This document shows positions 10,487 through 46,500 of a DNA stretch of 64,000 nt, piece after piece (position 1 is the first letter of the stretch; every line of letters starts with the position of its first letter). The stretch is from Bilabrum cf. latius (taxonomy: Eukaryota): positions 496,001 through 560,000 of the forward strand of contig OZ237757.1 of assembly GCA_965178125.1 (NCBI GenBank), in the 5' to 3' direction. A model generated the notes under the pieces. It was not told where the DNA came from. It saw only the letters and a program-made list of their open reading frames with translations, and searched no databases. The translations under genes and the position numbers were made by a program.

Positions 10487-10629
10487 CCCCTTCGCACTGT
10501 AGCTTCACCAGGCTTGTTTGCCGGCCACCTATTCCGGAGCCACAACACAGTTGCCACGCATCGCAGTCCGGCAATTGCGGCGGTGTGCCCAGACTGTTCT
10601 CACTTCAAACTTATCAAAGAACCGATACA

Positions 10630-17240: not shown

Positions 17241-17534
17241 AATGGAGGGTTGCTTCATACGAGTCCCAATCACGTTTCCACGAAATGTCCGCATCTCTGT
17301 TATGGTCCCTGCACAATCTTGTTCAGAGCGGCAACCGCGTCAACTTAAAACGTGTATCACAGATTGTGAAAGAAGTACATCTCGGGCAACCGCAAATGCA
17401 GCGGTGTCATGGTCGCTGGGGTTTCGTGCGACCAGCGCCGGTGGTTCCGTTTTCTAGTGTTGCCGCGCACCGGCCGACCGACCGACTTTATTGAGACGCT
17501 CCATTTTTTCCGTGACTCTTGAAATCTCGGCGTC

Positions 17535-24852: not shown

Positions 24853-27800
24853 ATGAAGTGGATGCATCGCAGTAGAGAATTTCAAGCTGCTACTCTGTTT
24901 TCTGTAGTACTGTTTGCAGTGTCCGTGTCCACTGCTCAGGACATCCAGGTCTATGAGCTCTCTGGAGCAGGAGAAAGCCTCAAACTTAGAAGTGGCGCAG
25001 GATCGAGTGCAACTAACTCCTCTGCCATATTTTATGGGGGAGATATAGAGCAGGGGGGTACCACGGTCGCACGCGTGGACGAGAGTAAGCGACTCTGTGA
25101 ATTGCAGCAACTCACGCACCAAGCGCCACACGATAACTAAAGTCGAAATGAATATCCATTACTAATCCGCAGCTGGGATTGCCACTACGATGAGCTCGAG
25201 TGGTACAGCACCTCCAGTCCTTGGGACTGCGTTCGCAGCCTCGTCCACGCACGCGTACACATACGGTGGCGCCAATCCAACGAACGGAGCCGCCATGCGA
25301 GGTACATATGTAATGTCATTAGGTAAGAATTATGAATGATATGGTCCTGTGACTGAGCCAGTCCTGCTTCACCTCGACAATGCAAACACTCGCTGCTGCT
25401 GTCGCCGCTGCTGCTGCTTCTCGTCGTCACAGACACTATGGCTTGGACTAAACTGGCACCAACAGTTCTGACAAGCCCTCGGCGATACGCGGCAGCCACT
25501 GTGCTGCGCGACTGCGAGGCGTTGGGTGAGGACTGCTTGCTCGTCAACGGCGGGCAGGGAGGCGGCTCCACCATCCACGCGAGTACCGCCGTGCTCAAGC
25601 CGGACAGCACTCCTCTCGAGTGGGAAGCACCTGCGGCAGCCCAGAGCGATGCACCCGCGGGCCGTTTTGACCACTCTCTTACGGCTGATCCCACTGGCCG
25701 CATGGCCGTGCTGTTCGGGGGCCGCACTGGACCCGACGCCGAGGACGCAACCAACCACGTGTGGGCGATCAGCTCGGTGGGGTTCAGGGGATCCGGGGAT
25801 CTCGCCAACATCGCCAAGGGACAGCCCGTTTACCAGACCAGCTCTAATGACAACTCGAGATTCAAGCCAGGGCGGGCTGTGGACGGGCTGTTGTCAACCA
25901 ATGCGGACAACGAGTAGTGCTCGGCAGGCACGACTGAATCGAACCCGTCGCTGTCGGTGGACCTCGGGGGTCCAAGAGAGGTGTCTGAGATCCGCTTCTA
26001 CCGCCGCTCGGACTGGCGTCAAGACAACCCGAATGGAGTGCGGTTCTCCGTGAATAACCACCGCACGGACCCGCTGGATGGTGAGGGCACTTCTTCCTTC
26101 ACCGAGTGCAACAACCCGTACACTGGCAGGTTGCCGGTGCCTACCGTGGTCAGCTGCACCGGGGCTGTGGGACGGTATGTACATGCCTTCCTGCGTGGAT
26201 CCGACAAGCGGCTGGACGTGTGCGAGCTCATGGTCATGGGCCCGCAGCCGTGGAAGTGGAAGTCCATCAACAACGGAGAGATCGAGGTGGCCAGCGGCAA
26301 GCCCACTGCTGCCACGCAGCAGGCGTGGGATGGAACCGCCGCCAAGATCAACGACGGGACCAAGGATCAGAGCCACAGCAACTTCAAGTCGTGCACCCAC
26401 TCTGGCGGTCACTCAGGCACGCACCACTGGGTGAGGATCGATCTCGAGAAGACGTTCGACCTGACCCGGGTGAAGATCTACGACCGCGAGGACGGGTGCT
26501 GCAGGGACCGGTCCAAGCAGATCTCCGTGTGGGTGGGGAACAACAAGGAGAGGTACGACCTCAACACCGAATGCGACGAAGACGTGCCGAGCCCCATCGC
26601 CAAGACCGCAGATGTGACATGCAAGCGGACCGGCAGGTATGTCTGGTTCGTTCAGCCTAAAGTAGGCAACACCTTATCTATATGCGAAGCCGAAGTGTAC
26701 GCGATGCCTGTCCGCAACCTGCCCGTGCCCCGCTTCGGTCACGCTACCACGCAGCATCGCGGTGTGGCCTGGATCTACGGTGGCATAGACGCGGATGGAT
26801 CTGCCCTGGGAGACGTGCACGCCCTGGATCTGCGCACCTTTGAGTTCAATTCGGCCCTGAAGATCGTGGGCCAGGCCCCTGCCGCACGTGGATTCGCATC
26901 GCTGGCCCCTGCAGGCGATGGGTCTCTCATCTTGCTTGGCGGCAGGTCAGGCGCTCTCGTGTCTTCCGACCGCGTGGAGGGCGCATACAGGATGCAGCTG
27001 CCTGCCTGCAGCGACCTGAACTTGGCGGGTGTGACGGGTAAGGACTGCTTCCGTGGGTCGTGCTACTACGAGTGCTCGACCGGATTCGAGGCGACTAACC
27101 TGGTGGGTGGCCCGCCTGTGACGTGTGAGCTGACTGGGTACTACTCGGGCTTCTCTCCAGTTTGCAAGGCCGAAACAGCCGATGCACCCCCGAGTGTGTC
27201 AGCCACCATCAGCGGTCGCACTGCAACGGTGACATGGGACCCGCCGACCGACTTCGGCACGTACACGAGTGCCACCCACTACGCAGTGCGGGCGGGCGAT
27301 ACGTACGTCGGCACGGACTTCAGTGATGGCGAGCTCCCTGCTGGCTGGACGTACAGCAACTACGGCAAGAGCACCAACACAATCACGTTTGAGCCTGGCC
27401 GCGATAAGTCCGGGGGCAGTGGATACGTGAAGTGGGACATGAAGGAGCGAGGCAACTGCTGGTGGTCCGAGAACGACTGTCCCCGGATCTTCGTGCCTTG
27501 GCCAGCTGGCATCAACTTTGAATCTAGCCCAACCGAAGGTAATAAGTGGGACGTGCAAGTGAAGGTGTGGGTCGGTGATGGCGCGCTTCCACATGGATAC
27601 ACGGGGGTGGGCATCGGTCTCGTCGAGGATGACCCAGCCAAACCAGAGTACGGCCAAGTTCGCCTGTACATGATGTTCGGTCGTCTAGCTGGATCGAATA
27701 CCATGCGAGTTTATGTGGAAGAGAATGGATATAACAAGCGAGTTCGAGATATTCCTGCAGATGAGAACGGAAGATTGTAGACGCTACGCATGATGTACGA

Positions 27801-30800
27801 CCCACAGTACGAAAGGATCACGACGTTTCATCGCGGACCCAATGACAACAACTGGAGAGAGATCTTTGAAGGGGGCTGGTGGATGGGACACTTACAGAGG
27901 GGTGGTCGTGTTAGCAAGGGCAAGCTGGTCATCATGTCCAAGTCGTGGTCAGACGTGGCTCAGACCTACTTCATCGACGACATCAAGGTCTCTGTGCAGG
28001 ACTGCCCAGCGAGCGGAGTGACTCGCCTCGCACCCCTCGCTGGCCTGACCCCCGCAGGCACTCCCAGCGGCAAGCTCCGTGCAACGTCTCCCATGCTGTC
28101 CAAGGGAATCAACTACAAGTTCCAGACGGCCGCAGTGACAGAGGCTGGGCTGGGCGACTGGTCTGACTACAGCAACTGGGTAATGCCCACCAACCCGCTT
28201 GAGTTCGGGCTGGAGAACGTGGCGAGGCAAAAGCCTGTCCGAGAATGGGGCGGAATATCAAACGGAAATTGGGCTTCAAGAGCTGTGGACGGCTACAACG
28301 GAAATGGAGAAATGGGATCTGGCCGCTGCATGCACGGGGCTTGGGCAAACTAGCCAAGGATCCGTATCGACCTCGAGTCACAGTTCAAAGTGGACACCAT
28401 CCGAGTGGCCCAGCGGATCAACTACTGCTGCTACGACCGAAGCTTGGGCACTGTGGCGTACGTGGGTGATGACCCCAACAACTTCAACAATAACCAGGTA
28501 TGTGAGGGTAGTCTCAACGCTTGGGACGGCCTCATCAAACTCCTGCGGTGCAACAACGCGATTGGCCGGTACGTGTGGATTGTCACGCCACCAAAGTGGA
28601 CTTTCCTGGAGCTTTGTGAGGTGGAGGTGCTGGCAGACAACAAGTGCGACGATCGGCAGCCGGCCAACACGGCTAGCGTTGGCACATGCACGAACGCTCG
28701 CAACGGTGACATCTGCACACACTCGTGCCTCCCTGGCTATGTCGAATCATCCGGGGAGTCTACCGCGGTGTGTAGGTACGGTGACTGGACCACGGAGCCT
28801 CTCGAGTGTGTGAAGCAGTGCCCTGCTCTTCCTGCCCCTTCTGGCTCCGAATCTTGCAAGCAGGCCGTGGCAGCCGAGGACTTCGAGATTGCTGACTCTG
28901 CCATGAAGCGGTTCGCGTCATCGGACCAGGCCAAGTTCCCGCTGACCGATTACTGGCACGTGGTGGACGGCCGCATGCTGGCCATGCCTCCACCCAGCGA
29001 TGGCGAGTGCCTCATGGACAACGAGGGCATGGTGGCGCTGCTGACCGATCCTGACCCTCGCGCGCAAGACGTGGAGTACTCTGTGTCTGTGGACCTGAGA
29101 TCGGAAGATGATGCCGGGTTGGTTTTCCGGGCAGCTACTTCTGGTCTCTTCTACTATGCATCGATCGGGTTCAGGTCCGGAATCCACCGCATCGTACGGC
29201 GAACGGGGGCTGCATCCGACGACGTGGAGATCGCGACGTCGGGCGTGTCTTTGCGCCGACTGGACTCGTCCGACCCACAGGACAAGCACAAGCTGGAGGT
29301 GCTGCTGAACGGCGAGAACATGGAAGTACGGCTGGATGGAGCACGTGTCATGACGGCCTCGGATGGATCCATCGCTTCGGGTGACGCGGGACTGTGGGCG
29401 CTGGGCCCCGCCGAGTTCGATAATCTGCGTGTGGATGCGCCCTGCCTGGTGGGTGGTGGCGACTCGGTCAGTGGATGCAGGCAGCTCTTCTACCAGGACG
29501 AGTGCGGGTTCACCTGCCGCAAGGGCTTCGATTCCAACGGGACCTCTGTGTCGAGGTGCATGGCCAATGGGGTCCTCCAGCAGCCCCAGGGCCCGCCGCA
29601 GTGCCTCATCCGGCCCCCTGTGGCAGTGGACCAGGAGCGCAACGTGACCGAGAATTCGCCCAGGAACACAGCCGTGGGGGATCCCGTCCGCGCCTCACTT
29701 GAGGCGGACGAGCAGATGGAGTTCAGCATCGTGGCAGGCGACGCCATGGAGGCCTTCCGCATCGGGCTGTGCGACGGGCAGCTGCGGGTGTTCGACCAGA
29801 GCCAGCTGGACTATGAGGTCAAGGAGGAGTTTGAACTGACCATTCGGATCGGCGTGAATGGGTTCTCGGCTTACACGGACATCAACGTCACGGTGCACGT
29901 GCAGGACGTGAACGAGCCCCCCACGCTGCCCGCCCAGAGCTTTGTAGTGCAGGAGAACTGCCAACCCATGACGCCGGTCGGGTAGCCGCTCGTGGGGCTG
30001 GCAGATGATCCCGAGGATGATACGCTGACCTTCCATCTGGACTTTGATGGAACTGACGGGATGTTGCTGCTGGACGAGACCTCGGGTCAACTGTCGCTCA
30101 ACTTCTCATCTCCACAGCGGCCCACAGGTACTGGTCACCCCGTCGATTTCGAGAATGGCCCCGCCTCCGGGTCCTTCTTGGCCATCGTGCAGGTGGAGGA
30201 CACCGTGGGAAACACGGCCTCCAGCTTCATCACCATGGCTCTCAACGACACCAACGATGCCCCCGAGCTAGACACCGTCAGTGGTGCAGGAGCTTCGAGT
30301 CTGCCTCAGTCCCAGGTCCTCACCGTGGATGAGTACGTGGCTGTGAGCATGGACGGGGCTCCCATGGATCCTTCGGTGCAGGCCGTGGACCAGGACCAGG
30401 GCCTTTACACTTCCGAACTGTCCTTCCGATTCACGAGCAAGGGTGCCAGCGGCTCTTCCCCGCTGCAGGGGACCCTCATCCGGCAGCAGGCCTCGGACAG
30501 CACTCCACAGGAAACCACTGGTGTCGTCTTGCAGGAGGGTGGGCAGGACCTGTTCACGATTGATGCTCACAGGGGCAATGTGTCTGTCACAGCCGTGCCC
30601 AGTCCTCAGTGGTCCATCACCAGCGACTACTCGCCGTACCTGTCTTTGGACGCTTCCACACAGGGCGTGCTGGTGCGGGCAGAGTACGTGTTGGAAGTGG
30701 AGGTGCGAGACAGGTTCGGAGCCACGGCCACGAGCAATGTGCGCTTTGTGATCGCCGCAAATGACTCGAGCATTCCTGTGATCCGCGAGGTGGCCTGCGA

Positions 30801-33800
30801 GGGTGATGGCATGCCCACGCGGGGTGGGGTGGTGTGCAACTTTACTGGCACTGGACTGGGGTCTGCAAGCAACACCGTGGGTGCATGGGTGACTCGCGCA
30901 AACCCACAGGGTGGCACGGGCCGCCTGGATTTCACCGGCTGCTCGATCGTGAAGGACTCTGTGATGATCCAGTGCATGAGTCCCGAAGGGTATGGCCGTG
31001 GATTTGACGTGCACGTGCAGGCGCAGGGACAGGAGGCCTTCAAGGCATCTCAGCTGCGGCTCAACTTCAGAGACCCCACCGTGACCGCTGTGAGCTAGAG
31101 CGCGCAGGCACTGGCCACCGAGGGAGGTACGGAGGTGGTGCTGTCAGGCGAGAACCTGGGGCCTGCGGGCAAGCAGACGGTGCGGTACAGCGATGGTCGT
31201 GGCGGGCAGCTGACCTGCCAGGTGAGAAGCTCGCTTGAGATCGGCGAGACGAGCCATGACACGGTGCGCTGCATCACGCAGGAGGGCTCGGGCAGCAACC
31301 TGCAGTGGATGATGTCCATCAACGAGGAAGCCGAGCTCACTGTCATGTCCATGCGTGCAGATGGGCAGGCCGATGCCGGGGCAGGGGCTGGTGAGGGTAC
31401 TGTAGCGGACCTGTTCGGATTCTCGTATGCACTCCCGCAGATCACAGGCGTGGAGGGACTGTCCAGCTCGCAGGACGTGAGGCAGCTATCCACGGCCGGC
31501 GGTGAGACCGTGGTGGTGCGAGGCAATAACTTCGGACCTGCTTCGGAAGCCGTGCGGGTGTGGCTGACGTATGCCCCGGAAAGCCCCGTGACCAGTATGG
31601 GAGCGGCGCTGGGCGGATACATGTACGAGATGGCCAGCTGCAGCAAGCCCGAGACAGGGGCCATGGCGCACAAACTGCTGCACTGCACAATGCCTGCGGG
31701 AGTGGGGCGGGGCCTGGTGTTGAGCATGTCCGTGAACGGCCAGTCGCAGGACGGCAGCACCTGCTATGCCCCTACTGTGGACGAGGGCAGCGATGCCGTG
31801 GATCAGCTGGACAGGGACCTGGTGTGTCCCAATTCCACGATCGCGTTCGTATCCTATGCGCCACCTCGCGTGGACCGCGTGCTGGGCGCAGACGGATCTG
31901 ACACGCGTGGCGGGCAGTCCTTCACGCTGGTGGGCGCGGGTTTCGGGCCCATGGAGCTGACAAATCTGGGCAGCGTGTCGTCTGTACTGTACGGTCCTGC
32001 AGACGCGGGCAACCTCAGGTATGATGCCACTGCCACCTGCAGGGTGTCGCAGGCCGATGTGGAGATCGAGTGCAGCACGCTGCCAGGGACCGGCAAGGAC
32101 CTGCAATTCAACCTGGCCGTGGCTGGGCAGGCCTCCACTAGCGATGTGGTACAGACCACGCATGCCTACGCGCAGCCCGTGCTGGCCACATTCGAGGGCG
32201 ACGGTGCGTCTGGTGCGGAGACTCCCGGTGGGCAGGTGGTGGCGCTGCACGGCAACAACTTCGGGCCCATGGGCGCCGGAATCGACACGCCCCTCAACGC
32301 GACGTACGACCTGTCCGTGGCGGGCGTGGGCTCAACCACGTTCCAGGCCGTGGACTGCCAGCTCACGGTGGCACATATCACGATCGAGTGCAGGACAGCA
32401 GAGGGGGCTGGCCGTGCCCTGGCCTGGACCGTGGTCGTGGACTCGCAGCCCAGCCGCAGCCCCACCACGAACTACGAGGTGCCTGTGGTGACCGCGGTGG
32501 TGCGGCCAGGGACCAGCGCAGGAGCGCGCGTGTCCGATGCAGACGTGGACGGCGGTGAGACGTTGGAGATTCACGGCACTGGCTTTGGGTCGCCTGACTT
32601 GGTGCTGGTGGACGAGGAGACGGGGGCTGTGTCGAACGCGCTGGAGAGCATCACGTACGGTCCCACAGGCACGGAATATACGCCGGTGTCTGTGACACAT
32701 GTGTCGCACACGCTGATCCAGATCGTGACGGAGCCGGGATGGGCCATGAATGCGTTCTTCCGCGTGGTGGTGGCCGGGCAGTCCAGCAGCACGAGCCCGC
32801 CCGCCTCGACCGACGCCACATTCGACTTCGCCAAGCCTTTGCTGGTGTCCCTGGCGCCGTCGGCAGTCAGCAGCACGTACTCGCCCGAAGACATCCCGCA
32901 GATCGTGAGGCTGACCACGCGGAATGTGCCCCTGAGGGACCGTCTGTCCAGGCCCGTGGTGCTGTTTGGGGGTCAGGTGCGGCAACCGACGTCTGCCATT
33001 CGCAATCAGGATGGCAGCCAGACCATCGCATTCACCCTCCCCGAGCATGGAGGCGGTTTCGCCATCCCAGTGAGGGTGGGGGTGGCCCCGGTCCGCGAGG
33101 ACGCCTCCCAGTCCGCGCCCAACCCGGAGTCGCTGTCTCTGCTGCAGGACCCGGCCACCATCTTCGCCTACCAGGCTCCCAGCATCGACCGACTCGTGGT
33201 GACCCGGCCTGCATGGACACAGCCGGGTTACGTGTCAGGCGCGAACACCCCGGCAGAGCAAAACTGCACCTTCGGGCCAGGGGATCCGTTCACATGCACC
33301 GACACGGACGTGCTGCAGGTGCTCATCATCGGGACTGGATTCTCGGATCCAAGGGGCTTCCGCCAGGACGGCGACGCGAGGGGGCTGCTGCGGGCGGACG
33401 TGTCTATGCTGCCTCTGCTGCGGTACCCGCTGGTGGTGCGGTCGCACACGCACAACCGTATCTTGGCCTACACTAACGAGCAGACAGGATCTGTGCAAGT
33501 GCAGGTGAGCGCCACGCTGCCTCAGTCGCTGGTGGACCAGGGCATGACCAGCGCGCTGGGCGTGGCAGTGGACACGATGGAGCAGCGCACCGACAGCGAG
33601 ACCTGGCAGCTGCTGGCGCCCTCCATCGCGGCGCTGCAGGGCACCACAACCGGACTGCCCACGGCCGGCCAACAGCCCGAAGATGGCACGCCGGCGGACG
33701 GCAACGGCATCACGATCGTGGTGGGCGGACTGGAGACGACCAAGAAGGTGAGGGTGCTGGTGGGGCCCAGCGCCAGCTCGGTGACTGCTTGCCGGGTGTG

Positions 33801-36800
33801 GTCGCTGCTGGAGAGCCGCTGGCTGGAAGCGAGTGCGAGTGGGTCCGACATCCAAACGCACGTGATCGACGTGATCGACGCCGCGGCTAACCAGCAGGGC
33901 ACGCAGGCCGTGTACGAGGTGTCGTTCCTGATCCCCGAGGCGCCCGCCACGCCCGAGCCGCTGGACGACATCCGGGTGTTTGTGGACCGCGATGGGGCGC
34001 TGTCCAGTGGCGACGACTCGTTCGCATATGCCGAGCCGTACGTGGCAGCTGTGGACGTGTGGATGCCGGCGGACGGCGCGTCCGGAGACCAGCCCACGGA
34101 CGCGAGTCCCGTGGAGTCCCACTGGCAGCGGGCCTGGGTTGCGCTGGATGCGAGCGATGTCCGGGTGCCCACTCGCGGTGGCTGGATCCGGGTGCGGGGC
34201 CAGGACCTGACGCAGTGTCCGCTGGTACGACTGGGCGACGGGCACATGAGCACGTGCACGCAAGGCATCGTCGCGTACGGACACCCGGACAGTGCCTCTT
34301 CTGCCAATCGACTGGCCTGCCAGCCAGCTGTTGCAGGTGGCAGCACGCCGTCGCTGCACGAGTGCTTCATCATCCCCGTGCCCGCGGGTGAGGGCGACGG
34401 TCTGCAGTACAACGACACGATGACCGGCTTCGTGCTGGATGTAGAGGCGGGGCTGCAGTCCATGGTACTGGCGGAGGACGTGGAAGACGTGCAGGCGGGA
34501 GGCGTCACGGACGGCGCTGACGGGATCGTGCCGAGGCGGCCCGGCGACGGTCCCACGGCGGTGCGGCTGGCCAACGTGCGGCGCGGCCTGCTGCAGTACT
34601 CGCACATCCGGCCTAGTATTGTCAGCGTGCAGCCCGCGGCGCAGACCGACTCGGTGCCGACCGCGGGCGGCGTGACTATGCTGGTGCGTGGAGCGAACTT
34701 CGGTGAGACCCCGAGCATGCGGCAGGCCCAAGCCGATGGCATCGACATGTTCATCCGCGTGGAGCTGGGCGTGCCTAGCAACAATGCAGGGGCCGTGCAG
34801 GCGTTTGGTCGAGCGGTGGAGTGGGTGGACTGTGCGAATGCAACCCGAGTGTCGCACGAGGTGGTGGAGTGCGTGCTGCCCGAAGGAGCCGGGTCCAACG
34901 TGGCGGCTCGAGTGACGGTGGCCGGGCTGGTGGGCGAGGCTGGCGGCATGGTGACGTATGACGCGCCCGTGGTGACCGCCGTGGCTCTGCATGGGCACTC
35001 GTCATCCTTCATGTCAGCGCTGGACGAGATGGATGACCTGTTCGAGGACGACGCCGACCCCACTGGGCTGCTGCGGGCTCAGGCCGTGTGGCTAGACACT
35101 GGCTTGGTCCGGCATGTGCCAAACGCCACGGTGCGCGCCACCATCGGACCGGTGGTACAGTTCGCATCTTTGTCGAGCGGAAGCCTGCAGGTGACAGGGG
35201 CTCCCACCAGAGGAGGTCGTCCCAACGGCCTGGACATGATGTACCCAGCAGCGGCCCACGTGACGCTGTTCGGACAGAACCTGGGCCGCAGGGGGGCGGT
35301 GGGTGATCCCCAGCTGTGCGTGTTCCTGGCGCAGTCCACGCGCAACACGGGTCTTGCTCTGGTGTGCGACGGCATGGAGGGCTTCCCCGGAGAGGGCGAG
35401 GTGCCGTCGTGGACGGTGGTGGTACACACGCACGACCGCATCACGTTCGAGCTGCCCGAGGGCGTGGGCCAGAAGGATCTGCAGGTGTCTGTGGGCGGGC
35501 GCACGCTTGTGGTGCCCACCACGCAGGACCAGCCCCGCCTACTGTATGCCCCCCCAAGCATCAGGGAAGTGCTGCCCGTTGTGCCCGCCAACGGCCCCAC
35601 CATCGGTGGGTACCTAGTGACGGTGCATGGAGCCAACTTCGGTCCCAAGCAGCGCAACGTCACATCGTTGGGTCAAGCCGTGGAGCTGGCCCAGGGTCGC
35701 TTTGTGTCCCCGCTGCCTCTGTCCATGGCATCCGCCGTGCCCACGTCATACCTGGTGGTGGACTTCTACCGGTCGTGCATCACGGACGCCACGTCGCCCG
35801 AGGGCCTGAAGCCCCAGCTGGGACGCACAGCAGGGTGCGACTATGTGATCGAAGACCGCGACCATGACTTCGTGACCTTCCGTGTGCCCGAGGGGATCGG
35901 GGCGAGCAGGGACGTGGCAGTGGAGGTCGTGGACGTGGCGGTGGCCGAGCTCCGAGCAAGCAGCGGCGCCGTGGGCTTCTCGGGCGTGTAGCGATCCGAG
36001 TCTCGCGGGGCCTTCTCCTACGATGCGCCGGAGATCGACCGCACGGATCCCACGCGCGTGTACCTCGAGTCTGGCCAGGACCTGGAGCAGTACCGGGACG
36101 TGCTGCTAGAGGTGCAGCGGCGTGTAGAGGAGCTGTTCGCCGGCGTCAGTAGCACTGGCACTGCCGACGTTGATGCCATCCTGCACGCGGCCCAGCAGCC
36201 TCTGTCGGAGTTCATCAACAGCGGCGAGCAGGCTTGGGGACAGGCGCTGGATGAGCTGCGACAAGAGGCCGGGTCCTCGCCGCGGCAGGCAGACGCGCTG
36301 CAGGGCCCCACCAAGATGGTGTACATGTTCGGCCGCAACTTCGGCAACCCTGCACTGGCACTGCGGTAGAACTGGAGCGATGCAGAGCGCTTCGTGGGTG
36401 CGTCCATCGGGAACGTGACCTGCCTGGAGACCAACCGCGGCAGACAAGCCGTGACGGATGACCCGCTGGAAGACCCGGCATCCACGCAGGTGGAGTGCGA
36501 GATCGAGGCACTGACAGTGGGGTACAAGAACGTGACGCTGCGAGTGGCAGGCCAGGTGGGCATGCTGGACGCCAGAGAGGGAGTGAGCGGGGTGCACTTC
36601 GTGTGCGCGCCTGGCCAGTTCGGGTTGGACGGGGAGTTCTGCCTGCCATGCCCGCAAGGAGCGGACTGCCCGGGCTACGACACGGATGTGCGGCGCAGCA
36701 TGCCGCCGCGTCCGCAGAGCGGCTTCTACAACCTCAACTCCTCTGACGGTCTCAGCGGCAACATGACCGACGCTGAGTGCCCCAGCCGCAAGCAGGTGCC

Positions 36801-39132
36801 CACCAGGGACGTGTGCGTGGTGGCATGTGAGCCGGCATGGGCCTGCGTGGGCGACAACTACTGTGCCGTGGGGTATGCCTCCAAGGCGCCCATGTACAGG
36901 TGCGGGTCCTGCGCGGACAACTTCTACAGGCGTGCAGGCGAGTGCGTGAAGTGCCCGGACAACCCATGGATCCTGATCGTGGCCTTCGTGGCGATGGCGC
37001 TGTTCGCGTGTGGGTTCGGTTTCTGGCTGAACCAGTCCAAGATCAACATCGCGCTGATCGCCATCGGCGTGGACTACTTCCAGGTGCTGGCCATCTTCGC
37101 CAATGCACGCGTGCAGTGGCCGCGACTGATCAAGGACATGTTCCACATCTTGTCGGCCTTCAACTTGAACCTGGAGATCACGGCTCCCGAATGCACTGTG
37201 CCCGAGCTGGCGTTCCAGACGAAGTGGTACTTCATCATCCTGCTGCCCATCGCGGCGATGGTGATGGTGGTGGGTATGTACTTGATAGGCATGGTGTACG
37301 TGTGCGCCAAGAGCGGCAGGTGCAAGCAGCCCAAGGACAAGACCAAGGACGAGCTGGCCCCGCTGGTGGCGGGCGCCATCGTGCTGAGCCTGTTCCTGTA
37401 CCTGGTGACCACGCGATCAATCCTGGACGTCTTCAACTGCGTGCCCACCACGCCCCCGGACGGGCAGCTGTACATGCAAGCCGTGTTTGAGCCTTGCGGC
37501 AAGAAGGGCGGCGTGCAGCTGACGTTGCTGCCATTCGCCATCATCGCGCTGGGCGTGTACACGATCGGCTTCCCGGCATGGGTGTGCTTCATGCTGGTGA
37601 CGAGCCGCAAGACCATGCTGCTGGACCAGCTGATGAGGTCGATCGGCAAGGGCAACGACATCAACTCGGACTGGCCCGAGGATGTGCAGGCGTCGTGCCA
37701 GTTCAGGCAGCGGTACCAGCGTCTGTACTACTACTTCAAGCCCGAGTACTACTGGTGGATCGTGACCATTCTGGCGCGCAAGGCCCTGATTGCGTTCTGC
37801 TCGCTCTTCTTCAATACCAACGCATCCTTCCAGATGGCCGCCGTGAACATGGTGCTGTTCATGTGCTACACAGCCCAGGTGCGCATCAACCCGTACATGC
37901 CGCCCGCGGACTACGCTGAGGTGATCACGGGCTGGGCCCAGAGCGCGCTGGACGGGGCAGCCAAGGACGCCCGCACGCCAGGGCGGCTGGCCGTCAAGGA
38001 CATCGAGGGCGCCGCCAAGACTCGCAGCGAACAGGCGGGGCAGGCGTCGTCGCAGGCGGCCGGTGGCATGATCCGCGACTCGTCGGGCCGGGCTGTGACG
38101 GGCAGAGACGTGCACGGCGAGCTGTGGTTCAAGATCCGGGAGGTGATCCAGTCCCTGGATCGCCGGGACCAGCGCCGCTTTGGCACCACGCTGGCCAACG
38201 CAGGTTCGAGCAACGGCGGTCGGTAGGCGGGACAGACCGCCATCGGCGGACTGGGCACGAGCATCGGCGTGCTTGGCAACTCGCTCATGAACTGGAACAC
38301 CGTCGAGACTCTGCTGCTCTCGTGTGCTATCCTGGTGACTCTGGGCGGCATCATGCTCGAATCCGGGAGGCTGGACCAGGAGGGCGCCGAGGGCCAGCGG
38401 GACGCTCTGACCATCCTGCTGATGATGGTGATCATGGCATCGATCCTGTACTACTTCACGGTGCTGTTCACGGAGGTGTATGTCCTGGTGACGGACGCGC
38501 AGAGCCGCAAGGAGGCCCTCATCAAGAAATCCGAGAAGGCAAGGGCCGCCCGCAAGGCCTCGGCCAGTGCACCCAACGCGGCTGTGCTGGAGGAGGTGGA
38601 CATCGACACCACCGGTATGATGCACCAGAGCAACCCCGCCTTCAGCTCACAGCAGGGTCGCGACTCCCAGGCAGGCGGGCAGGCCATGGTGGGCCAGATC
38701 AAGGAGATCACCGGCCTCAAGAACATGAACGCTGACACCTGGAACCGCCTTCGCCCCCAGCTGGAGGACTTCGCCGGCAGGTTCGGCGAGATGAAGGAAG
38801 AGATTGATGCGCTGCGCAAGGACCTGGCTCGCGCCCAGGGCCGGAACAGCGTTATGGGCGCGGATCTGGGAGTTCTCGGCGGTGCAGCGGCTCGTCGAGA
38901 GTCCGTAGCCCAGGCTGCCGGATCTGGGTCCAACCCTCTACTGGCTGCACGCGGCTCCCGCCGCAGTTTTGCAGCGAAGGGGAGTGGCATGGGAGGCCGG
39001 CGAGCAAGCAAGGGCCTGCTTGCATCTGCACGAAAGGCCAGCTTCCGCACGCTGCAAACTGGAGCCGTGACTAGCAAGGCTGGTGCGGACGGAGGCAAGG
39101 CCGCCGGTGAGTCAGACAACAAAGAGCAGTGA
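24853..39132 (+). CDS. Giant multidomain surface receptor/adhesin, copy A, ~4693 aa (exons 24853-25084, 25173-25322, 25433-39132)
   Basis: Signal peptide, kelch repeats, three F-type-lectin/discoidin domains, sushi and FN3-like modules, ConA-like domains, cadherin repeats (LDYE, DVNEPP, DTNDAP), many IPT/TIG repeats, a Cys-rich stalk, ~9 TM helices and a coiled-coil tail. Nine listed ORFs lie in one frame, separated only by eight TAGs. Ends at TGA. Confidence 0.9.
25459..39114 (+). repeat. Left arm of a ~13.7-kb inverted repeat (pairs with ~40587-54227)
   Basis: The reverse complement of the right arm matches nearly base for base over long stretches, and translations of 600-1500 aa are almost identical. 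Boundaries are approximate. Confidence 0.95.
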
Positions 39133-39611
39133 TCGCATGTGATCTGGTGCCACATCCATTGCGCTGCATGTTTCTTGTGCCGCACTACGTCTAGCTCACA
39201 CTGCCATCTACACTTCTCATTGTGAATCTAAATGAGGGCCGTATCCGTGGCAGGCTTGACATGGGTGGCAAAATTGTTGTGATTAGCCTCGCGGTGAAAC
39301 GCTGCATTATCAGTTTTAACGTTGCTTTGCTCTTGTTTTATTAGCCTTACGTTGTATATTCTATATTAATATTTGTCATTCAATTCAAATATTCAGGCAA
39401 ATGGCCTCGGGCCGTCACCAGCATCCCGCTGCGGGCTGCGACTCCCCGACACGAGAAAATGACACATCAAACCTAGGATCTCGGCTGCTCCACAACGCTG
39501 TACGCGCTATTTACTCTGCAACACTTATGCGTTTGGGGCTCTGCCACTCTTTTTCGAATTAAGGAAGGTAAGTGTATTTACAATTTGTTGGCGTTCAAGC
39601 TGGTCGCACTA

Positions 39612-39802
39612 GTTGGTGAGGCAAGCAAGGTCTCAGAGATCCGAGGATTGAGGTTGCGCGCTGGGCACAGTACCCGCTCGAGACGCAGGATCAGATGCAA
39701 CGTAGCGACGGGGAGGAGAGAGAGCGCGTTTAAGGAGGCCAGGTTAGGGATGAAGAGCAAGAGCGGCGGCTAGGGATGGGCGAGGGGGGGGGGGGGATGA
39801 GG
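39612..39802 (+). repeat. Degenerate dispersed repeat, copy 1 (decayed coding fragment ending in poly-G)
   Basis: gttggtgaggcaagcaaggtctcagagat..attgaggttgcgcgctgggcacagtacccgctcgag..gcggcggc..poly-G-atgag aligns with 56904-57222. Confidence 0.75.
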
Positions 39803-40568
39803 GCGGAGTAGTGGAGGAGGAGATGAGTGATGGGGTCATCTGGTTGATACGGCGGATTAGAATGGAGAGGCACAAGGTGGGCAGGTGGGGTGAAGGCGTA
39901 TGCGTGTCGAGTGACTTGGATCAGGGAATCGGATCACCCGACCGCATGCAGATTAGGAATTTGGGAGGTCACAGTTAGACTTGAGCGGCAATCTAGCCGT
40001 GTGCTATTCGGGTGCTGAAGGGCAGCACTCGCCAGTTTTTGCTATTTTACCTCTCGCTCAACTATGGATCCAATGGCAGCATCGCGCTGAGCGTCGGACT
40101 GTTGCGACCGCCTGAGGACGGCCCAGGCTGGCAAAGAAACGCTCCCAATCCAAATATAACTCCGACGACACCGAACAGTAAATGGCATCGGAAACCTGGA
40201 CAGGCTATCCGGATGTTTGTGTTCTTGTTTTCGGTGGCGGATCCATTTCAGTCCGATGATTTCTTGCATTTGTGGAATAGGGAGCAGGGGGGGTCACTTT
40301 ATGGGACCTATCCTGATCTAGTCGGAAAAAACTTGGTAAAAAGTACAAATTAACAAAGCAAAAATGGTTTTCAAATCGTGAAGCAGGAAAGAGCCAGTCT
40401 AACTCCGCCCAGACTAAACAGCCTCGTTGTTTTGCCATCAACAGCAAGGATCTCCAAAGAACACTGTAGGATTCAGCTGGGGGATCAAGCCTAGGCAAGA
40501 ACTGCTATCATCTATCACTAACACATGCAAATTCATTTAGTCGATGAACTAAGAGGAATGTAATAGGA

Positions 40569-43500
40569 TCACCGCTCTTGACTATCGGACTCACCGGCGG
40601 CCTTGCCTCCGTCCGAACCAGTCACGGCTCCAGTTCGCAGCGTGCGGAAGCTGGCCTTTCGTGCAGATACAAGCAGACCCTTGCTTGCTCGCCGGCCTCC
40701 CATGCCACTCCCCTTCGCTGCAAAACTGCGGCGGGAGCCGCGTGCAGCCAGTAGAGGGTTGGACCCAGATCCGGCAGCCTGGGCTACGGACTCTCGACGA
40801 GCCGCTGCACCGCCGAGAACTCCCAGATCCGCGCCCATAACGCTGTTCCGGCCCTGGGCGCGAGCCAGGTCCTTGCGCAGCGCATCAATCTCTTCCTTCA
40901 TCTCGCCGAACCTGCCGGCGAAGTCCTCCAGCTGGGGGCGAAGGCGGTTCCAGGTGTCAGAGTCCATGTTCTTGAGGCCGGTGATCTCCTTGATCTGGCC
41001 CGCCATGGCCTGCCCGCCTGCCTGGGAGTCGCGACCCTGCTGTGAGCTGAAGGCGGGGTTGCTCTGGTGCGTCATACCGGTGGTGTCGATGTCCACCTCC
41101 TCCAGCACAGCCGCGTTGGGTGCACTGGCCGAGGCCTTGCGGGCGGCCCTTGCCTTCTCGGATTTCTTGATGAGGGCCTCCTTGCGGCTCTGCGCGTCCG
41201 TCACCAGGACATACACCTCCGTGAACAGCACCGTGAAGTAGTACAGGATCGATGCCATGATCACCATCATCAGCAGGATGGTCAGAGCGTCCCGCTGGCC
41301 CTCGGCGCCCTCCTGGTCCAGCCTCCCGGATTCGAGCATGATGCCGCCCAGAGTCACCAGGATAGCACACGAGAGCAGCAGAGTCTCGACGGTGTTCCAG
41401 TTCATGAGCGAGTTGCCAAGCACACCGATGCTCGTGCCCAGTCCGCCGATGGCGGTCTGTCCCGCCTACCGACCGCCGTTGCTCGAACCTGCGTTGGCCA
41501 GCGTGGTGCCAAAGCGGCGCTGGTCCCGGCGATCCAGGGACTGGATCACCTCCCGGATCTTGAACCACAGCTCGCCGTGCACGTCTCTGCCCGTCACAGC
41601 CCGGCCCGACGAGTCGCGGATCATGCCACCGGCCGCCTGCGACGACGCCTGCCCCGCCTGTTCGCTGCGAGTCTTGGCGGCGCCCTCGATGTCCTTGACG
41701 GCCAGCCGCCCTGGCGTGCGGGCGTCCTTGGCTGCCCCGTCCAGCGCGCTCTGGGCCCAGCCCGTGATCACCTCAGCGTAGTCCGCGGGCGGCATGTACG
41801 GGTTGATGCGCACCTGGGCTGTGTAGCACATGAACAGCACCATGTTCACGGCGGCCATCTGGAAGGATGCGTTGGTATTGAAGAAGAGCGAGCAGAACGC
41901 AATCAGGGCCTTGCGCGCCAGAATGGTCACGATCCACCAGTAGTACTCGGGCTTGAAGTAGTAGTACAGACGCTGGTACCGCTGCCTGAACTGGCACGAC
42001 GCCTGCACATCCTCGGGCCAGTCCGAGTTGATGTCGTTGCCCTTGCCGATCGACCTCATCAGCTGGTCCAGCAGCATGGTCTTGCGGCTCGTCACCAGCA
42101 TGAAGCACACCCATGCCGGGAAGCCGATCGTGTATACACCCAGCGCGATGATGGCGAATGGCAGCAACGTCAGCTGCACGCCGCCCTTCTTGCCGCAAGG
42201 CTCAAACACGGCTTGCATGTACAGCTGCCCGTCCGGGGGCGTGGTGGGCACGCAGTTGAAGACGTCCAGGATTGATCGCGTGGTCACCAGATACAGGAAC
42301 AGGCTCAGCACGATGGCGCCCGCCACCAGCGGGGCCAGCTCATCCTTGGTCTTGTCCTTGGGCTGCTTGCACCTACCGCTCTTGGCGCACACGTACACCA
42401 TGCCTATCAAGTACATACCCACCACCATCACCATCGCCGCGATGGGCAGCAGGATGATGAAGTACCACTTCGTCTGGAACGCCAGCTCGGGCACAGTGCA
42501 TTCGGGAGCCGTGATCTCCAGGTTCAGGTTGAAGGCAGACAGGATGTGGAACATGTCCTTGATCAGTCGCGGCCACTGCACGCGTGCATTGGCGAAGATG
42601 GCCAGCACCTGGAAGTAGTCCACGCCGATGGCGATCAGCGCGATGTTGATCTTGGACTGGTTCAGCCAGAAACCGAACCCACACGCGAACAGCGCCATCG
42701 CCACGAAGGCCACGATCAGGATCCATGGGTTGTCCGGGCACTTCACGCACTCGCCTGCACGCCTGTAGAAGTTGTCCGCGCAGGACCCACACCTGTACAT
42801 GGGCGCCTTGGAGGCATACCCCACGGCGCAGTAGTTGTCGCCCACGCAGGCCCATGCCGGCTCACATGCCACCACGCACACGTCCCTGGTGGGCACCTGC
42901 TTGCGGCTGGGGCACTCAGCGTCGGTCATGTTGCCGCTGAGACCGTCAGAGGAGTTGAGGTTGTAGAAGCCGCTCTGCGGACGCGGCGGCATGCTGCGCC
43001 GCACATCCGTGTCGTAGCCCGGGCAGTCCGCTCCTTGCGGGCATGGCAGGCAGAACTCCCCGTCCAACCCGAACTGGCCAGGTGCGCACACGAAGTGTAC
43101 CCCGCTCACTCCCTCTCTGGCGTCCAGCATGCCCACCTGGCCTGCCACTCGCAGCGTCACGTTCTTGTACCCCACTGTCAGTGCCTCGATCTCGCACTCC
43201 ACCTGCGTGGATGCCGGGTCTTCCAGCGGGTCATCCGTCACGGCTTGTCTGCCGCGATTGGTCTCCAGGCAGGTCACGCCCCCGATGGACGCACCCACGA
43301 AGCGCTCTGCATCGCTCCAGTTCTACCGCAGTGCCAGTGCAGGGTTGCCGAAGTTGCGGCCGAACATGTACACCATCTTGGTGGGGCCCTGCAGCGCGTC
43401 TGCCTGCCGCGGCGAGGACCCGGCCTCTTGTCGCAGCTCATCCAGCGCCTGTCCCCAAGCCTGCTCGCCGCTGTTGATGAACTCCGACAGAGGCTGCTGG

Positions 43501-46500
43501 GCCGCGTGCAGGATGGCATCAACGTCAGCAGTGCCAGTGCCACTGACGCCGGCGAACAGCTCCTCGACACGCCGCTGCACCTCTAGCAACACCTCCCGGT
43601 ACTGCTCCAGGTCCTGGCCAGACTCGAGGTACACGCGCGTGGGATCCGTGCGGTCGATCTCCGGCGCATCGTAGGAGAAGGCCCCGCGAGACTCGGATCG
43701 CTGCACGCCCGAGAAGCCCACGGCGCCGCTGCTTGCCCGGAGCTCGGCCACCGCCACGTCCACGACCTCCACTGCCACGTCCCTGCTCGCCCCGATCCCC
43801 TCGGGCACACGGAAGGTCACGAAGTCATGGTCGCGGTCTTCGATCACATAGTCGCACCCTGCTGTGCGTCCCAGCTGGGGCTTCAGACCCTCGGGAGACG
43901 TGGCATCTGTGATGCACGACCGGTAGAAGTCCACCACCAGGTATGACGTGGGCACGGCGGATGCCATGGACAGAGGCAGCGGGGACACAAAGCGACCCTG
44001 GGCCAGCTCCACGGCTTGACCCAACGATGAGACGTTGTGCTGCTTGGGACCGAAGTTGGCTCCATGCACCGTCACTAGGTACCCACCGATGGTGGGGCCG
44101 TTGGCGGGCACAACGGGCAGCACTTCCCTGATGCTTGGGGGGGCATACAGTAGGCGGGGCTGGTCCTGCGGGGTGGGCACCACAAGCGTGCGCCCGCCCA
44201 CAGACACCTGCAGATCCTTCTGGCCCACGCCCTCGGGCAGCTCGAACGTGATGCGGTCGTGCGTGTGCACCACCACCGTCCATGCCGGCACCTCGCCCTC
44301 TCCGGGGAAGCCCTCCATGCCGTCGCACACCAGAGAAAGACCCGTGTTGCGCGTGGACTGCGCCAGGAACACGCACAGCTGGGGATCACCCACCGCCCCC
44401 CTGCGGCCCAGGTTCTGACCGAACAGCGTCACGTGGGCCGCTGCTGGGTACATCATGTCCAGGCCGTTGGGACGACCTCCTCTGGTGGGAGCCCCGGTCA
44501 CCTGCAGACTTCCAGTCGATAAAGATGCGAACTGTACCACCGGTCCGATGGTGGCGCGCACCGTGGCGTTTGGCACATGCCGGACCAAGCCAGTATCTAG
44601 CCACACGGCCTGAGCCCGCAGTAGCCCAGTGGGGTCGGCGTCGTCCTCGAACAGGTCATCCATCTCGTCCAGCGCTGACATGAAGGATGACGAGTGCCCA
44701 TGCAGAGCCACGGCGGTCACCACGGGCGCGTCATACGTCACCATGCCGCCAGCCTCGCCCACCAGCCCGGCCACCGTCACTCGAGCCGCCACGTTGGACC
44801 CGGCTCCTTCGGGCAGCATGCACTCCACCACCTCGTGCGACACTCGGGTTGCATTCGCACAGTCCACCCACTCCACCGCTCGACCGAACGCCTGCACGGC
44901 CCCTGCATTGTTGCTGGGCACGCCCAGCTCCACGCGGATGAACATGTCGATGCCATCGGCTTGGATCTGCCGCATGCTCGGGGTCTCGCCGAAGTTCGCT
45001 CCACGCACCAGCATAGTCACGCCGCCTGCGGTCGGCACCGAGTCGGTCTGCGCCGCGGGCTGCACGCTGACAATACTAGGCCGGATGTGCGAGTACTGCA
45101 GCAGGCCGCGCCGCACGTTGGCCAGCCGCACCGCCGTGGGACCGTCACCGGGCCGCCTTGGCACGATCCCGTCACCGCCGTCCGTGACACCTCCCACCTG
45201 GACGTCTTCCACATCCTCCGCCAGTACCATGGACTGCAGCCCCGCCTCCACATCCAGCACGAAGCCGGTCATCGTGTCGTTGTACTGCAGACCGTCGCCC
45301 TCACCCGCAGGCACGGGGATGATGAAGCACTCGTGCAGCGACGGCGTGCTGCCACCTGCAACAGCTGGCTGGCAGGCCAGTCGATTGACAGAAGAGGCAC
45401 TGTCCGGGTGTCCGTACGCGACGATGCCTTGCGTGCACGTGCTCATGTGCCCGTCGCCCAGTCGTACCAGCGGACACTGCGTCAGGTCCTGGCCCCGCAC
45501 CCGGATCCAGCCACCGCGAGTGGGCACCCGGACATCGCTCGCATCCAGCGCAACCCAGGCCCGCTGCCAGTGGGACTCCACGGGACTCGCGTCCGTGGGC
45601 TGGTCTCCGGACGCGCCGTCCGCCGGCATCCACACGTCCACAGCTGCCACGTACGGCTCGGCATATGCGAACGAGTCGTCGCCACTGGACAGCGCCCCAT
45701 CGCGGTCCACAAACACCCGGATGTCGTCCAGCGGCTCGGGCGTGGCGGGCGCCTCGGGGATCAGGAACGACACCTCGTACACGGCCTGCGTGCCCTGCTG
45801 GTTAGCCGCGGCGTCGATCACGTCAATCACGTGCGTTTGGATGTCGGACCCACTCGCACTCGCTTCCAGCCAGCGGCTCTCCAGCAGCGACCACACCCGG
45901 CAAGCAGTCACCGAGCTGGCGCTGGGCCCCACCAGCACCCTCACCTTCTTGGTCGTCTCCAGTCCGCCCACCACGATCGTGATGCCGTTGCCGTCCGCCG
46001 GCGTGCCATCTTCGGGCTGTTGGCCGGCCGTGGGCAGTCCGGTTGTGGTGCCCTGCAGCGCCGCGATGGAGGGCGCCAGCAGCTGCCAGGTCTCGCTGTC
46101 GGCGCGCTGCTCCATCGTGTCCACTGCCACGCCCAGCGCGCTCGTCATGCCCTGGTCCACCAACGACTGGGGCAGCGTGGCGCTCACCTGCACTTGTACA
46201 GATCCTGTCTGCTCGTTGGTGTAGGCCAAGATACGGTTGTGCGTGTGCGACCGCACCACAAGCGGATACCGCAGCAGAGGCAGCATAGACACGTCCGCCC
46301 GCAGCAGCCCCCTCGCGTCGCCGTCCTGGCGGAAGCCCCTTGGATCTGAGAATCCAGTCCCGATGATGAGCACCTGCAGCACGTCCGTGTCACTGCACGT
46401 GAACGGATCCCCTGGCCCGAAGGTGCAGTTTTGCTCTGCCGGGGTGTTCGCGCCTGACACGTAGCCCGGCTGTGTCCATGCAGGCCGGGTCACCACGAGT

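What the first reader, a model, noticed from the sequence alone, without database searches (positions are those of the whole stretch)
27510..28625. Hypervariable islands in putative ligand-binding domains escape homogenisation
Seen: within otherwise near-identical arms, ~27510-27975 (vs ~51715-52180) and ~28255-28625 (vs ~51065-51430) are dense in replacement changes and small indels. An example is EENGYNKRVRDIPADENGRL vs EQNGYGQRTKTIGAGANDRE. These map to the ConA-like insert and the third F-type lectin domain. Inference: a constant scaffold with diversified recognition modules, such as a prey- or pathogen-glycan recognition system.
Basis: partly seen in the sequence, partly recalled or inferred. 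Interest (0 to 1): 0.7.

Follow-up and report, generated by a model that had tools for sequence, protein, structure and literature searches.

The report
Lectin islands in twin giant receptors
Two back-to-back copies of a giant surface-receptor gene in a single-celled eukaryote are kept almost identical by gene copying, except in two sugar-binding-type domains that have stayed different for a long time, and the same domains stand out in two other twin gene pairs of the same genome, which suggests twins with one scaffold and different ligands.

Summary
Real. The 13.7-kb inverted arms are two spliced paralogous genes (about 4,690 aa; TAG read as Gln) for giant Kelch/F-type-lectin/sushi/FN3/cadherin/TIG multi-pass membrane proteins. 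They differ at 31% of bases in 27514-27972 (C-terminal two-thirds of a ConA-fold insert) and 15% in 28249-28626 (third F-type lectin domain), against 2-4% elsewhere. Silent sites rise as much as replacements (pS 0.66 and 0.35 against 0.06-0.10; dN/dS about 0.2), indels are only two codons, and changes are not loop-enriched here. So these are old tracts that escaped gene conversion, not hypervariable, positively selected patches. The 5' exons (40% identical) show the duplication is ancient. Two independent twin pairs elsewhere in the genome peak at the same coordinates (joint P about 3e-4 for silent changes). In two pairs one twin keeps the fucose-binding RxD motif and the other has RxN. Best reading: selection preserving different ligand specificity against conversion (about 0.55). 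A toy simulation shows that faster lectin evolution plus a mismatch barrier can also produce the pattern. The mechanism is known (divergence peaks under concerted evolution); the receptor family (43 or more loci) was not found described. Ligand and role are untested.

The parts
24853..39132 (+). Gene copy A, 4,693 aa: exons 24853-25084, 25173-25322, 25433-39132; TAG read as Gln
   Evidence: Open frame of 4,591 codons with 8 TAG; exon model with GT..AG introns; the second intron is skipped in contigs of runs X5 and X6; the first intron is inferred
40569..54884 (-). Gene copy B, 4,678 aa: exons 54884-54686, 54560-54408, 54253-40569
   Evidence: the loose ends at 25459 in X5 and X6 read as the spliced exon2-exon3 join of B
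25459..39134 (+). Left arm of the inverted repeat (the homogenised part; starts 26 bases into exon 3 and ends at the stop codon)
   Evidence: 96.2% over 13,676 bp
40567..54227 (-). Right arm of the inverted repeat
24853..25458 (+). Unhomogenised 5' part (signal-peptide-like start, first Kelch-like motifs): 40% residue identity to B, pS 0.72
   Evidence: one 57-base DNA match only
25795..26709 (+). F-type lectin domains 1 and 2; domain 1 holds a small cluster of 6 residue changes at 25900-25932
   Evidence: Pfam F5_F8_type_C_2, 3 stretches; boundaries set by me
27298..28002 (+). ConA-fold beta-sandwich inserted in a fibronectin-III domain
   Evidence: Model residues 43-277 align to GH43 C-terminal sandwiches (Z 21.1, rmsd 2.8, 194 aligned) and legume lectins (Z about 15); no Pfam hit for this copy
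27514..27972 (+). Island 1 in copy A: 31% of bases differ, sharp edges, GC at four-fold sites 0.50 vs 0.79
51714..52172 (-). Island 1 in copy B
28207..28641 (+). Third F-type lectin domain; His 28333, Arg 28414, Asn 28420 (Asp in B), one extra codon, Cys-Cys 28426-28431, Arg 28438
   Evidence: phmmer to FBP32 (E 2e-19) and eel agglutinin 1k12; Z 17.5 to 1k12
28249..28626 (+). Island 2 in copy A: 15% of bases differ, two one-codon indels
51066..51437 (-). Island 2 in copy B; carries the canonical H-x26-RxD-x4-R motif
29611..36600 (+). Cadherin-like repeats followed by IPT/TIG repeats (stalk), 1-2% residue difference between copies
   Evidence: Pfam Cadherin and TIG; boundaries set by me
36601..38490 (+). 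Cys-rich module plus 8-9 hydrophobic helices; identical in protein between the copies
   Evidence: 0 of 630 residues differ; hydropathy; weak PF06011 TRP matches in 3 of 9 family members; Atlas look-alikes
39135..40566 (.). Unique 1.4-kb spacer between the two stop codons

Best explanation
An ancient duplication made two tail-to-tail copies of a giant cell-surface receptor or adhesin gene. Non-allelic gene conversion between the long coding exons keeps the stalk and membrane module nearly identical (well supported). Conversion tracts that would overwrite the ConA-fold insert or the third F-type lectin domain are selected against, because the twins bind different ligands (inferred). Silent changes then accumulate around the protected residues, and once local divergence is high the mismatch itself blocks further conversion and gives the sharp edges (inferred). 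The result is one anchoring or signalling scaffold with two fixed glycan-recognition variants. Copy B keeps a canonical fucose site in lectin domain 3; copy A keeps the basic triad but changes the Asp and lengthens the loop, so its fine specificity probably differs (motif shown, binding inferred). Whether the ligand is prey, parasite or self is not determined.
For: Old duplicate with young middle: 5' exons 40% identical with pS 0.72 and matching intron phases, flanks unalignable, repeat ending at the stop codon. Outside the islands, silent differences are patchy: longest run 231 codons vs 114 expected, P 0.0007; longest identical tract 708 bp. GC at four-fold sites is 0.79 in homogenised DNA and 0.50 in island 1; GC3 is 0.44-0.49 in the 5' exons. 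Homogeneous conversion gave no island in 0 of 60 toy runs. Joint circular-shift P is 5e-4 for residues and 3e-4 for silent changes, and 3e-3 and 1.6e-3 within the N-terminal ectodomain alone. Parallel RxD/RxN difference in the window pair and the C17 pair; C17 changes sit in CDR-like loops, 16/57 vs 4/88, P 1e-4. No donor in the assembly: the nearest other copy is 35-38% identical in this domain. The expected signature is described in PMC2588116 and PMC3924837 (passages).
Against: pN never exceeds pS in any window or loop set (highest 0.27/0.37). In the window pair, changes are not loop- or CDR-enriched (11/57 vs 13/88). The lectin-type domains evolve faster anyway: 11-15% difference in lectin 2 and ConA vs 3-6% elsewhere between the single-copy C2 gene and an orthologue-like protein (P 0.005). 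With that faster rate plus mismatch-sensitive conversion, toy runs gave lectin-only islands in 24 of 40 and 18 of 40 runs with no selection against conversion. C29 shows no residue enrichment in island 2 (4/122) and little silent enrichment in island 1 (1.2-fold). Site-by-site overlap of changes between pairs is weak (P 0.09, 0.26, 0.03). Three of six other near-identical sets of the wider family show no island, and one escape tract lies in cadherin repeats. One orthologue-like fragment is equidistant from both C17 twins, so those islands look younger than that split.
Confidence: 0.55

Rival explanations
1. Neutral escape. The lectin-type domains are under weaker constraint and gather mismatches two to three times faster, and mismatch-sensitive conversion then fails there in a self-reinforcing way. 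The twins need not differ in function.
For: Faster orthologue divergence in these domains in a single-copy paralogue. The ConA C-terminal part is the least conserved domain between subfamilies. Toy simulation reproduces lectin-only islands in 24/40 and 18/40 runs at a three-fold rate. dN/dS about 0.2 and no loop enrichment in this pair.
Against: The outcome depends on parameters: 0/40 and 1/40 at higher conversion rates with the same three-fold rate, and the simulated background (median 0.01-0.03) is below the observed 0.05. It does not predict the parallel RxD/RxN change or the CDR concentration in the C17 pair. The faster rate may itself reflect selection on binding sites.
Confidence: 0.27
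2. Import. One copy received the island by recombination with a divergent allele, a lost third paralogue or a sister lineage, so the island is a recent patch rather than an old survivor.
For: Very sharp edges (0/90 bases differ just before 27514, 5/276 just after 27972). Island 1 differs by 33% of residues, twice the 15-17% seen to orthologue-like proteins.
Against: No donor among the 5 matches in the assembly. Both island versions have the same low GC at four-fold sites (0.50, 0.52). The 5' exons already show an ancient duplication. Two other pairs peak at the same place.
Confidence: 0.1
3. Active or ongoing hypervariability (positive selection with dN above dS, or a programmed diversification mechanism) generating a repertoire.
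For: Sixteen-fold residue enrichment; many multi-base codon changes.
Against: pN below pS everywhere. Only two variants are seen: contigs of runs X3, X5 and X6 match A's island 1 with 0 differences, and B-type contigs match B (38 of 38 listed letters; difference counts 126 vs 126 and 52 vs 52). Contigs drop rare variants, so this is not proof.
Confidence: 0.05
4. Assembly artefact: two alleles of one gene joined as an inverted repeat.
For: All three twin pairs of the subfamily are about 96% identical, as allele pairs might be.
Against: Flanks, 5' exons and spacer are copy-specific and unalignable. Different neighbouring genes lie upstream of each copy. Pairs occur tail-to-tail, tandem and head-to-head. 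Copy-specific 5' ends of both genes occur in runs of a second study.
Confidence: 0.03

Closest known systems
Peaks of divergence between duplicates under gene conversion (Teshima-Innan signature; red/green opsin exon 5; Drosophila CG18281/CG17637), from passages of PMC3924837 and PMC2588116
   Same: Old duplicates kept alike by conversion, with local peaks flanked by near-identity; two peaks in one coding region; dN/dS tests are uninformative.
   Different: Here the peaks recur at the same domains in three independent twin pairs of one genome. The published test uses orthologues from a second species and a flat orthologous divergence; I had no A/B orthologues, and orthologous divergence here is not flat.
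F-type lectin domain family (eel agglutinin AAA, striped bass FBP32), passages of PMC5712786
   Same: Fold (Z 17.5), DG calcium motif, His/Arg/Arg triad, vicinal cysteines; isoform variation in CDR loops.
   Different: Three copies inside a 4,700-aa multi-pass membrane protein of a microbial eukaryote. Copy A has Asn for Asp plus one extra residue; one C17 twin has also lost the His.
ConA-like sandwiches: GH43 C-terminal domain (PF17851) and legume/L-type lectins
   Same: Same fold by model comparison (Z 18-21 and about 15); distant profile hits carry PF17851 and DUF1349.
   Different: About 10% identity, no Pfam hit, inserted in a fibronectin-III domain; sugar- and metal-binding residues not established.
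Clustered protocadherins and paired immune receptors shaped by conversion (Noonan 2004 seen only as a reference in PMC3924837; PMC7042247 and PMC3210942 seen as listing and abstract start only)
   Same: Conversion homogenises part of a receptor while another part escapes.
   Different: Unrelated proteins in animals. In the paired leukocyte receptors, by the title, it is the ligand-binding domains that are homogenised, the opposite polarity. That protocadherin specificity domains escape conversion is recalled, not read here.
Eukaryotic Ephrin_rec_like / TRP(PF06011)-like / DUF7630 multi-pass proteins with large ectodomains
   Same: The Cys-rich plus membrane module resembles these Atlas clusters (scores 0.93-0.95).
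   Different: These are unnamed, uncharacterised clusters; Pfam support is weak and the ectodomain combination here is not shown in them.

Membership tests
F-type lectin domain | F-type jelly-roll fold | tested here: met
   phmmer E 2e-19 to FBP32 and 2e-9 to 1k12; model Z 17.5, rmsd 2.8, 147 aligned
F-type lectin domain | Fucose motif H..RxDx4(R/K) (printed as HX24 in PMC5712786; its AAA numbering His52/Arg79 gives 26), third domain of copy B | tested here: met
   present in B, with spacing 26
F-type lectin domain | Same motif, third domain of copy A | tested here: not met
   RxN with five spacer residues; His and both Arg are kept, so it is a variant site
F-type lectin domain | Calcium motif h2DGx | tested here: met
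   A-V-D-G present in both copies (alignment)
F-type lectin domain | Binding of fucose or other glycans | not testable with these tools
   No assay possible
ConA-like / L-type lectin | ConA-type beta-sandwich fold | tested here: met
   model mean pLDDT 67.9 from a 7-row alignment
ConA-like / L-type lectin | Conserved sugar- and metal-binding loop residues of L-type lectins (recalled) | tested here: inconclusive
   No residue-level alignment or coordinates were returned; best matches are non-catalytic GH43 domains; no Pfam or PDB sequence match
Selection-maintained divergence peak under gene conversion | Old duplication with ongoing conversion outside the peak | tested here: met
   indirect, from one genome
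Selection-maintained divergence peak under gene conversion | Peak too high for homogeneous conversion | tested here: met
   0 of 60 toy runs
Selection-maintained divergence peak under gene conversion | Flat orthologous divergence across the gene (no relaxed constraint at the peak) | tested here: not met
   For the C2 paralogue the ConA part differs 12-15% from an orthologue-like protein vs 3-6% in non-lectin domains; protein level only, and not the window genes
Selection-maintained divergence peak under gene conversion | Peak sequences group by locus across species | tested here: inconclusive
   No A or B orthologue was found; one C17-like fragment is equidistant from both twins
Positively selected hypervariable region | dN/dS above 1 in the island or its loops | tested here: not met
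   0.16 and 0.21; loop sets 0.17-0.50
TRP/PKD2-like (PF06011) membrane domain | Pfam match above the curated cut-off, or a channel fold | tested here: inconclusive
   Best E 3e-4, in 3 of 9 members; window protein 9.2 bits vs cut-off 28.5; model pLDDT 48, not searched
Adhesion GPCR | Seven helices with a GAIN/GPS domain (recalled) | tested here: inconclusive
   8 hydropathy peaks, no such Pfam hit; passages of PMC12716839 named no matching family

The most novel reading that the evidence does not exclude
A single-celled eukaryote runs a paired-receptor recognition system. More than 40 giant cadherin/TIG receptors share one membrane module and are repeatedly kept as twins. Conversion standardises the scaffold while selection shields the distal glycan-binding modules, and the same switch in the fucose site (RxD in one twin, RxN in the other) arose independently in two pairs.
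Probability: 0.25. Interest if true: 0.75.

Novelty: new variant of a known kind. Interest (0 to 1): 0.5.

Why it matters
Divergence peaks under gene conversion are known from a handful of single gene pairs. Here one genome gives three independent twin pairs with the same domain order, so recurrence can be tested directly, and it points to the two domains most likely to decide ligand choice. Molecular receptors for prey, parasite or self recognition in free-living protists are poorly known (own knowledge). Twin domains of 150-230 residues that differ at the binding motif are a ready A/B test on glycan arrays.

Tried and rejected
Homologue searches: three word-index searches found nothing at E 0.001 (limited length ranges, so weak evidence). 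The profile search gave 11 hits, none an A or B orthologue (best 50% to A). The metagenome scan returned one locus, L043, which has no tblastn match to the family and was dropped as a chance hit. No Pfam or PDB sequence match for the ConA insert. Membrane-domain model too poor to search (pLDDT 48). No RNA holder is listed on record; X5 and X6 are guessed RNA, and contigs hold spliced joins. Their depths (A island 38.7 vs B-type 267-380 in X5; 5.5 vs 47.7 in X6) are contig figures and are not used as expression evidence. Loop mapping used predicted secondary structure only; my split of ConA loops into the two ends of the sandwich is inferred from strand order and gave 15/88 vs 5/78 for C17 plus C29 (P 0.054), so it is not claimed. 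Buried versus exposed residues could not be computed, as no coordinates were returned. No tRNA gene in the window. Literature searches for the genetic code and lineage and for this receptor architecture found no description; the library lacks most subscription journals, and no supplements were opened. Earlier scan findings: none. The lineage was not established. The Atlas gave no result for the ConA insert.
Full report
WHAT IS THERE. The window holds one large inverted repeat, 25459-39134 against 54227-40567, 13,676 bp at 96.2%. Each arm is a single frame if TAG is read as a residue (4,591 and 4,672 codons with 8 and 10 TAG); TAG columns align mostly to Gln in paralogues (126 times, next Glu 54). 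Each gene has two short 5' exons: A at 24853-25084, 25173-25322, 25433-39132 (4,693 aa) and B at 54884-54686, 54560-54408, 54253-40569 (4,678 aa). The second intron is missing from contigs of runs X5 and X6 for A (a GT..AG joint) and for B (spliced loose end), so both copies appear to be transcribed; these runs are only guessed to be RNA, and I laid 4 of the 7 runs listed. Pfam gives Kelch, three F5/8-type-C (F-type lectin) stretches, sushi, fn3, cadherin and TIG. The C-terminus has a Cys-rich module and 8 hydropathy peaks with only weak PF06011 similarity. Domain boundaries used below are mine.

THE OBSERVATION. Island 1 is 27514-27972 (144 of 459 bases differ; 54 of 155 codons change residue). 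Island 2 is 28249-28626 (56 of 372 bases; 22 of 122 codons). The flanks are 0/90, 5/276 and 3/129, and the rest of the gene 84/2055 and 198/10338. The quoted peptides are correct. Indels are not dense: none in island 1, two single codons in island 2. A model of the region (7-row alignment, mean pLDDT 67.9) matches GH43 C-terminal ConA-like sandwiches (Z 21.1, rmsd 2.8, 194 aligned) and legume lectins (Z about 15) over residues 43-277, and eel agglutinin (Z 17.5) over the third lectin domain. The domain names are therefore right as folds. Island 1 covers only the C-terminal two-thirds of the insert; the first 68 codons have no residue change.

NOT HYPERVARIABLE BUT OLD. Silent divergence rises with replacement divergence: pS 0.66 and 0.35 against 0.06-0.10; dN/dS 0.16 and 0.21 against 0.12-0.18. 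No 40-codon window and no loop set has pN above pS. In this pair changes fall equally on predicted strands and loops (28/114 vs 26/118 in ConA; 12/66 vs 12/79 in the lectin domain). The 5' exons are 40% identical with pS 0.72 and share intron phases. Upstream DNA shares one 57-base match and downstream DNA none, and the repeat ends at the stop codon. So the duplication is ancient and the long exon has been homogenised. Silent differences outside the islands are patchy (longest run 231 codons against 114 expected, P 0.0007). GC at four-fold sites is 0.79 in homogenised DNA but 0.50-0.52 in island 1, as GC-biased conversion would give (inference). A toy simulation with uniform conversion gave no island in 60 runs.

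REPLICATES IN THE SAME GENOME. Searches of the own genome found five more genes of the same architecture: a single copy on C2 (67% to A), a tandem pair on C17 (56%; twins 96.0% at DNA level) and a head-to-head pair on C29 (35%; twins 95.8%). In island 1 the twins are closest to each other (0.09 base difference vs 0.47-0.62 or so between subfamilies), so the pairs are independent. This drops the 5' Kelch edge and the tails, which in C29 lie at or outside the repeat edge; with them included C29's residue enrichment is only 1.7-fold. C17: residue changes 32/275 vs 73/3972 (circular-shift P 0.016), silent rate 0.218 vs 0.075 (P 0.015). C29: 17/276 vs 74/3845 (P 0.027), silent 0.181 vs 0.090 (P 0.004). 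Joint P is 5e-4 and 3e-4, and 3e-3 and 1.6e-3 when shifts are limited to the N-terminal ectodomain. Against this, C29 has no residue excess in island 2 (4/122) and little silent excess in island 1, and site-by-site overlap between pairs is weak.

THE BINDING MOTIF. PMC5712786 (passages) defines the fucose site by His52, Arg79, Asp81, Cys82-Cys83 and Arg86 of eel agglutinin, surrounded by five CDR loops. Copy B has the full motif in domain 3. Copy A keeps His and both Arg but has Asn for Asp and one extra residue. In the C17 pair one twin again has H..RxD, and the other has RxN and Arg for His. C17 changes concentrate in CDR-like segments (16/57 vs 4/88, P 1e-4); the window pair (11/57 vs 13/88) and C29 (3/57 vs 1/88) do not reach significance. 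I drew the CDR segments from homology after seeing the alignment.

THE MAIN RIVAL. These domains evolve fast anyway. Between the single-copy C2 gene and an orthologue-like protein (P0004), ConA and lectin 2 differ by 11-15% and non-lectin domains by 3-6%. In toy runs with mismatch-sensitive conversion and a three-fold faster residue rate in lectin domains, islands confined to those domains arose in 24 of 40 and 18 of 40 runs. They arose in 0 of 40 at equal rates, and in 0 of 40 and 1 of 40 at higher conversion rates. The simulated background was lower than observed, so this shows possibility, not fit. Recurrence therefore does not prove selection against conversion. The published test (PMC2588116, passages) needs orthologues of both twins and flat orthologous divergence. 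I found no A or B orthologue, and flatness fails for the one paralogue I could test.

WIDER FAMILY. The membrane module has 57 matches in the genome, 43 covering at least 245 of 367 residues; I examined 31 of the 43. Of six further near-identical sets, three diverge towards the membrane-distal 5' end (the six-gene C19/C40/C15 group, the five-gene C3 group, and the outer C3 pair, whose tract lies in cadherin repeats) and three show no island (C33, C3b/c, C7). First bins there include intron read-through and are inflated, and 5' gradients are confounded with the edge of homology. The window's islands are internal and are not.

NOT AN ARTEFACT. Flanks and neighbours are copy-specific. Contigs from runs X3, X5 and X6 carry A's island 1 with 0 differences, and B-type contigs match B (38 of 38 listed letters; 126 of 126 and 52 of 52 expected differences in two records; 80 vs 83, 111 vs 114 and 162 vs 165 in three others with aligner gaps). 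X3 may be the source; X5 and X6 are one other study and may be the same strain.

HOW IT MOST LIKELY WORKS. Shown: old duplication, homogenised scaffold, two escaped tracts in ConA-fold and F-type lectin domains, recurrence in two other pairs, a motif difference. Inferred: surface location and a sensing or adhesion role (signal-peptide-like start, stalk, multi-pass anchor); selection against conversion because the twins bind different glycans (0.55); neutral escape (0.27); import from a lost donor (0.10); active hypervariability (0.05); artefact (0.03). Prey versus parasite versus self is not addressed by any result.

COMPARISON AND NOVELTY. It works like the opsin exon-5 and Drosophila transporter peaks (PMC3924837 and PMC2588116, passages) and the copepod GOT1 islands (PMC3728101, abstract and outline only). 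It is not shown to meet all criteria of that class. The third domain is an F-type lectin by fold, and by motif in B only. Four searches and passages of PMC12716839 showed no description of this receptor architecture; the library omits most subscription journals and no supplements were read. Verdict: a real and replicated case of a known evolutionary pattern in an apparently undescribed protist receptor family; interest 0.5.

Noticed in passing
whole window: Nuclear code with TAG read as Gln while TAA and TGA stay stops: the seven long frames hold 6-15 TAG each, and TAG columns align to Gln 126 times, next Glu 54. Lineage not identified.
   Followed up: partly
   Followed up: partly
window 28756-28782: Eight consecutive or near-consecutive codons differ only silently (8 of 27 bases): an old unconverted patch with no residue change.
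   Followed up: partly
window 28626-39132: Silent divergence falls towards the centre of the palindrome (Spearman -0.72, P 0.0007).
   Followed up: partly
G000 C19, C33, C40, C15, C3, C7, C9, C1, C13, C21 (L044-L099): The membrane module has 57 matches in the genome, 43 of them covering at least 245 of 367 residues; many are twins or clusters in inverted orientation. The C19/C40/C15 group and two C3 sets diverge towards the 5' end; the C33, C3b/c and C7 pairs show no island.
   Followed up: partly
G000 C29:183148-184894 and ends of the C29 pair: Head-to-head twin genes whose last about 90 codons and first exons lie outside the homogenised repeat (tail pS 0.58).
   Followed up: partly
G000 C17:1100375-1115000 (L031, L032): Dense array of 1-4 kb direct repeats next to the C17 twins.
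   Followed up: no
window 61988-64000 (+) and 57707-61459 (-): A MACPF-domain frame (E 8e-7) runs off the window end; a divergent 1,251-codon frame without a Pfam match lies beside it.
   Followed up: no
window 17523-24599, 10432-13413, 8105-10504, 5876-7543, 2368-3813, 55088-56377: Housekeeping neighbours: CYFIP-like, ABC-F-like, pseudouridine synthase, cytidylyltransferase, RRM protein, TrmO.
   Followed up: no
window 14343-17339 (-): 998-codon frame with no Pfam match, a hydrophobic start and one C-terminal hydrophobic stretch.
   Followed up: no
window 39612-39724 and 56904-57008: A 113-bp, 75% identical direct repeat shared by the spacer and a downstream intergenic region.
   Followed up: no
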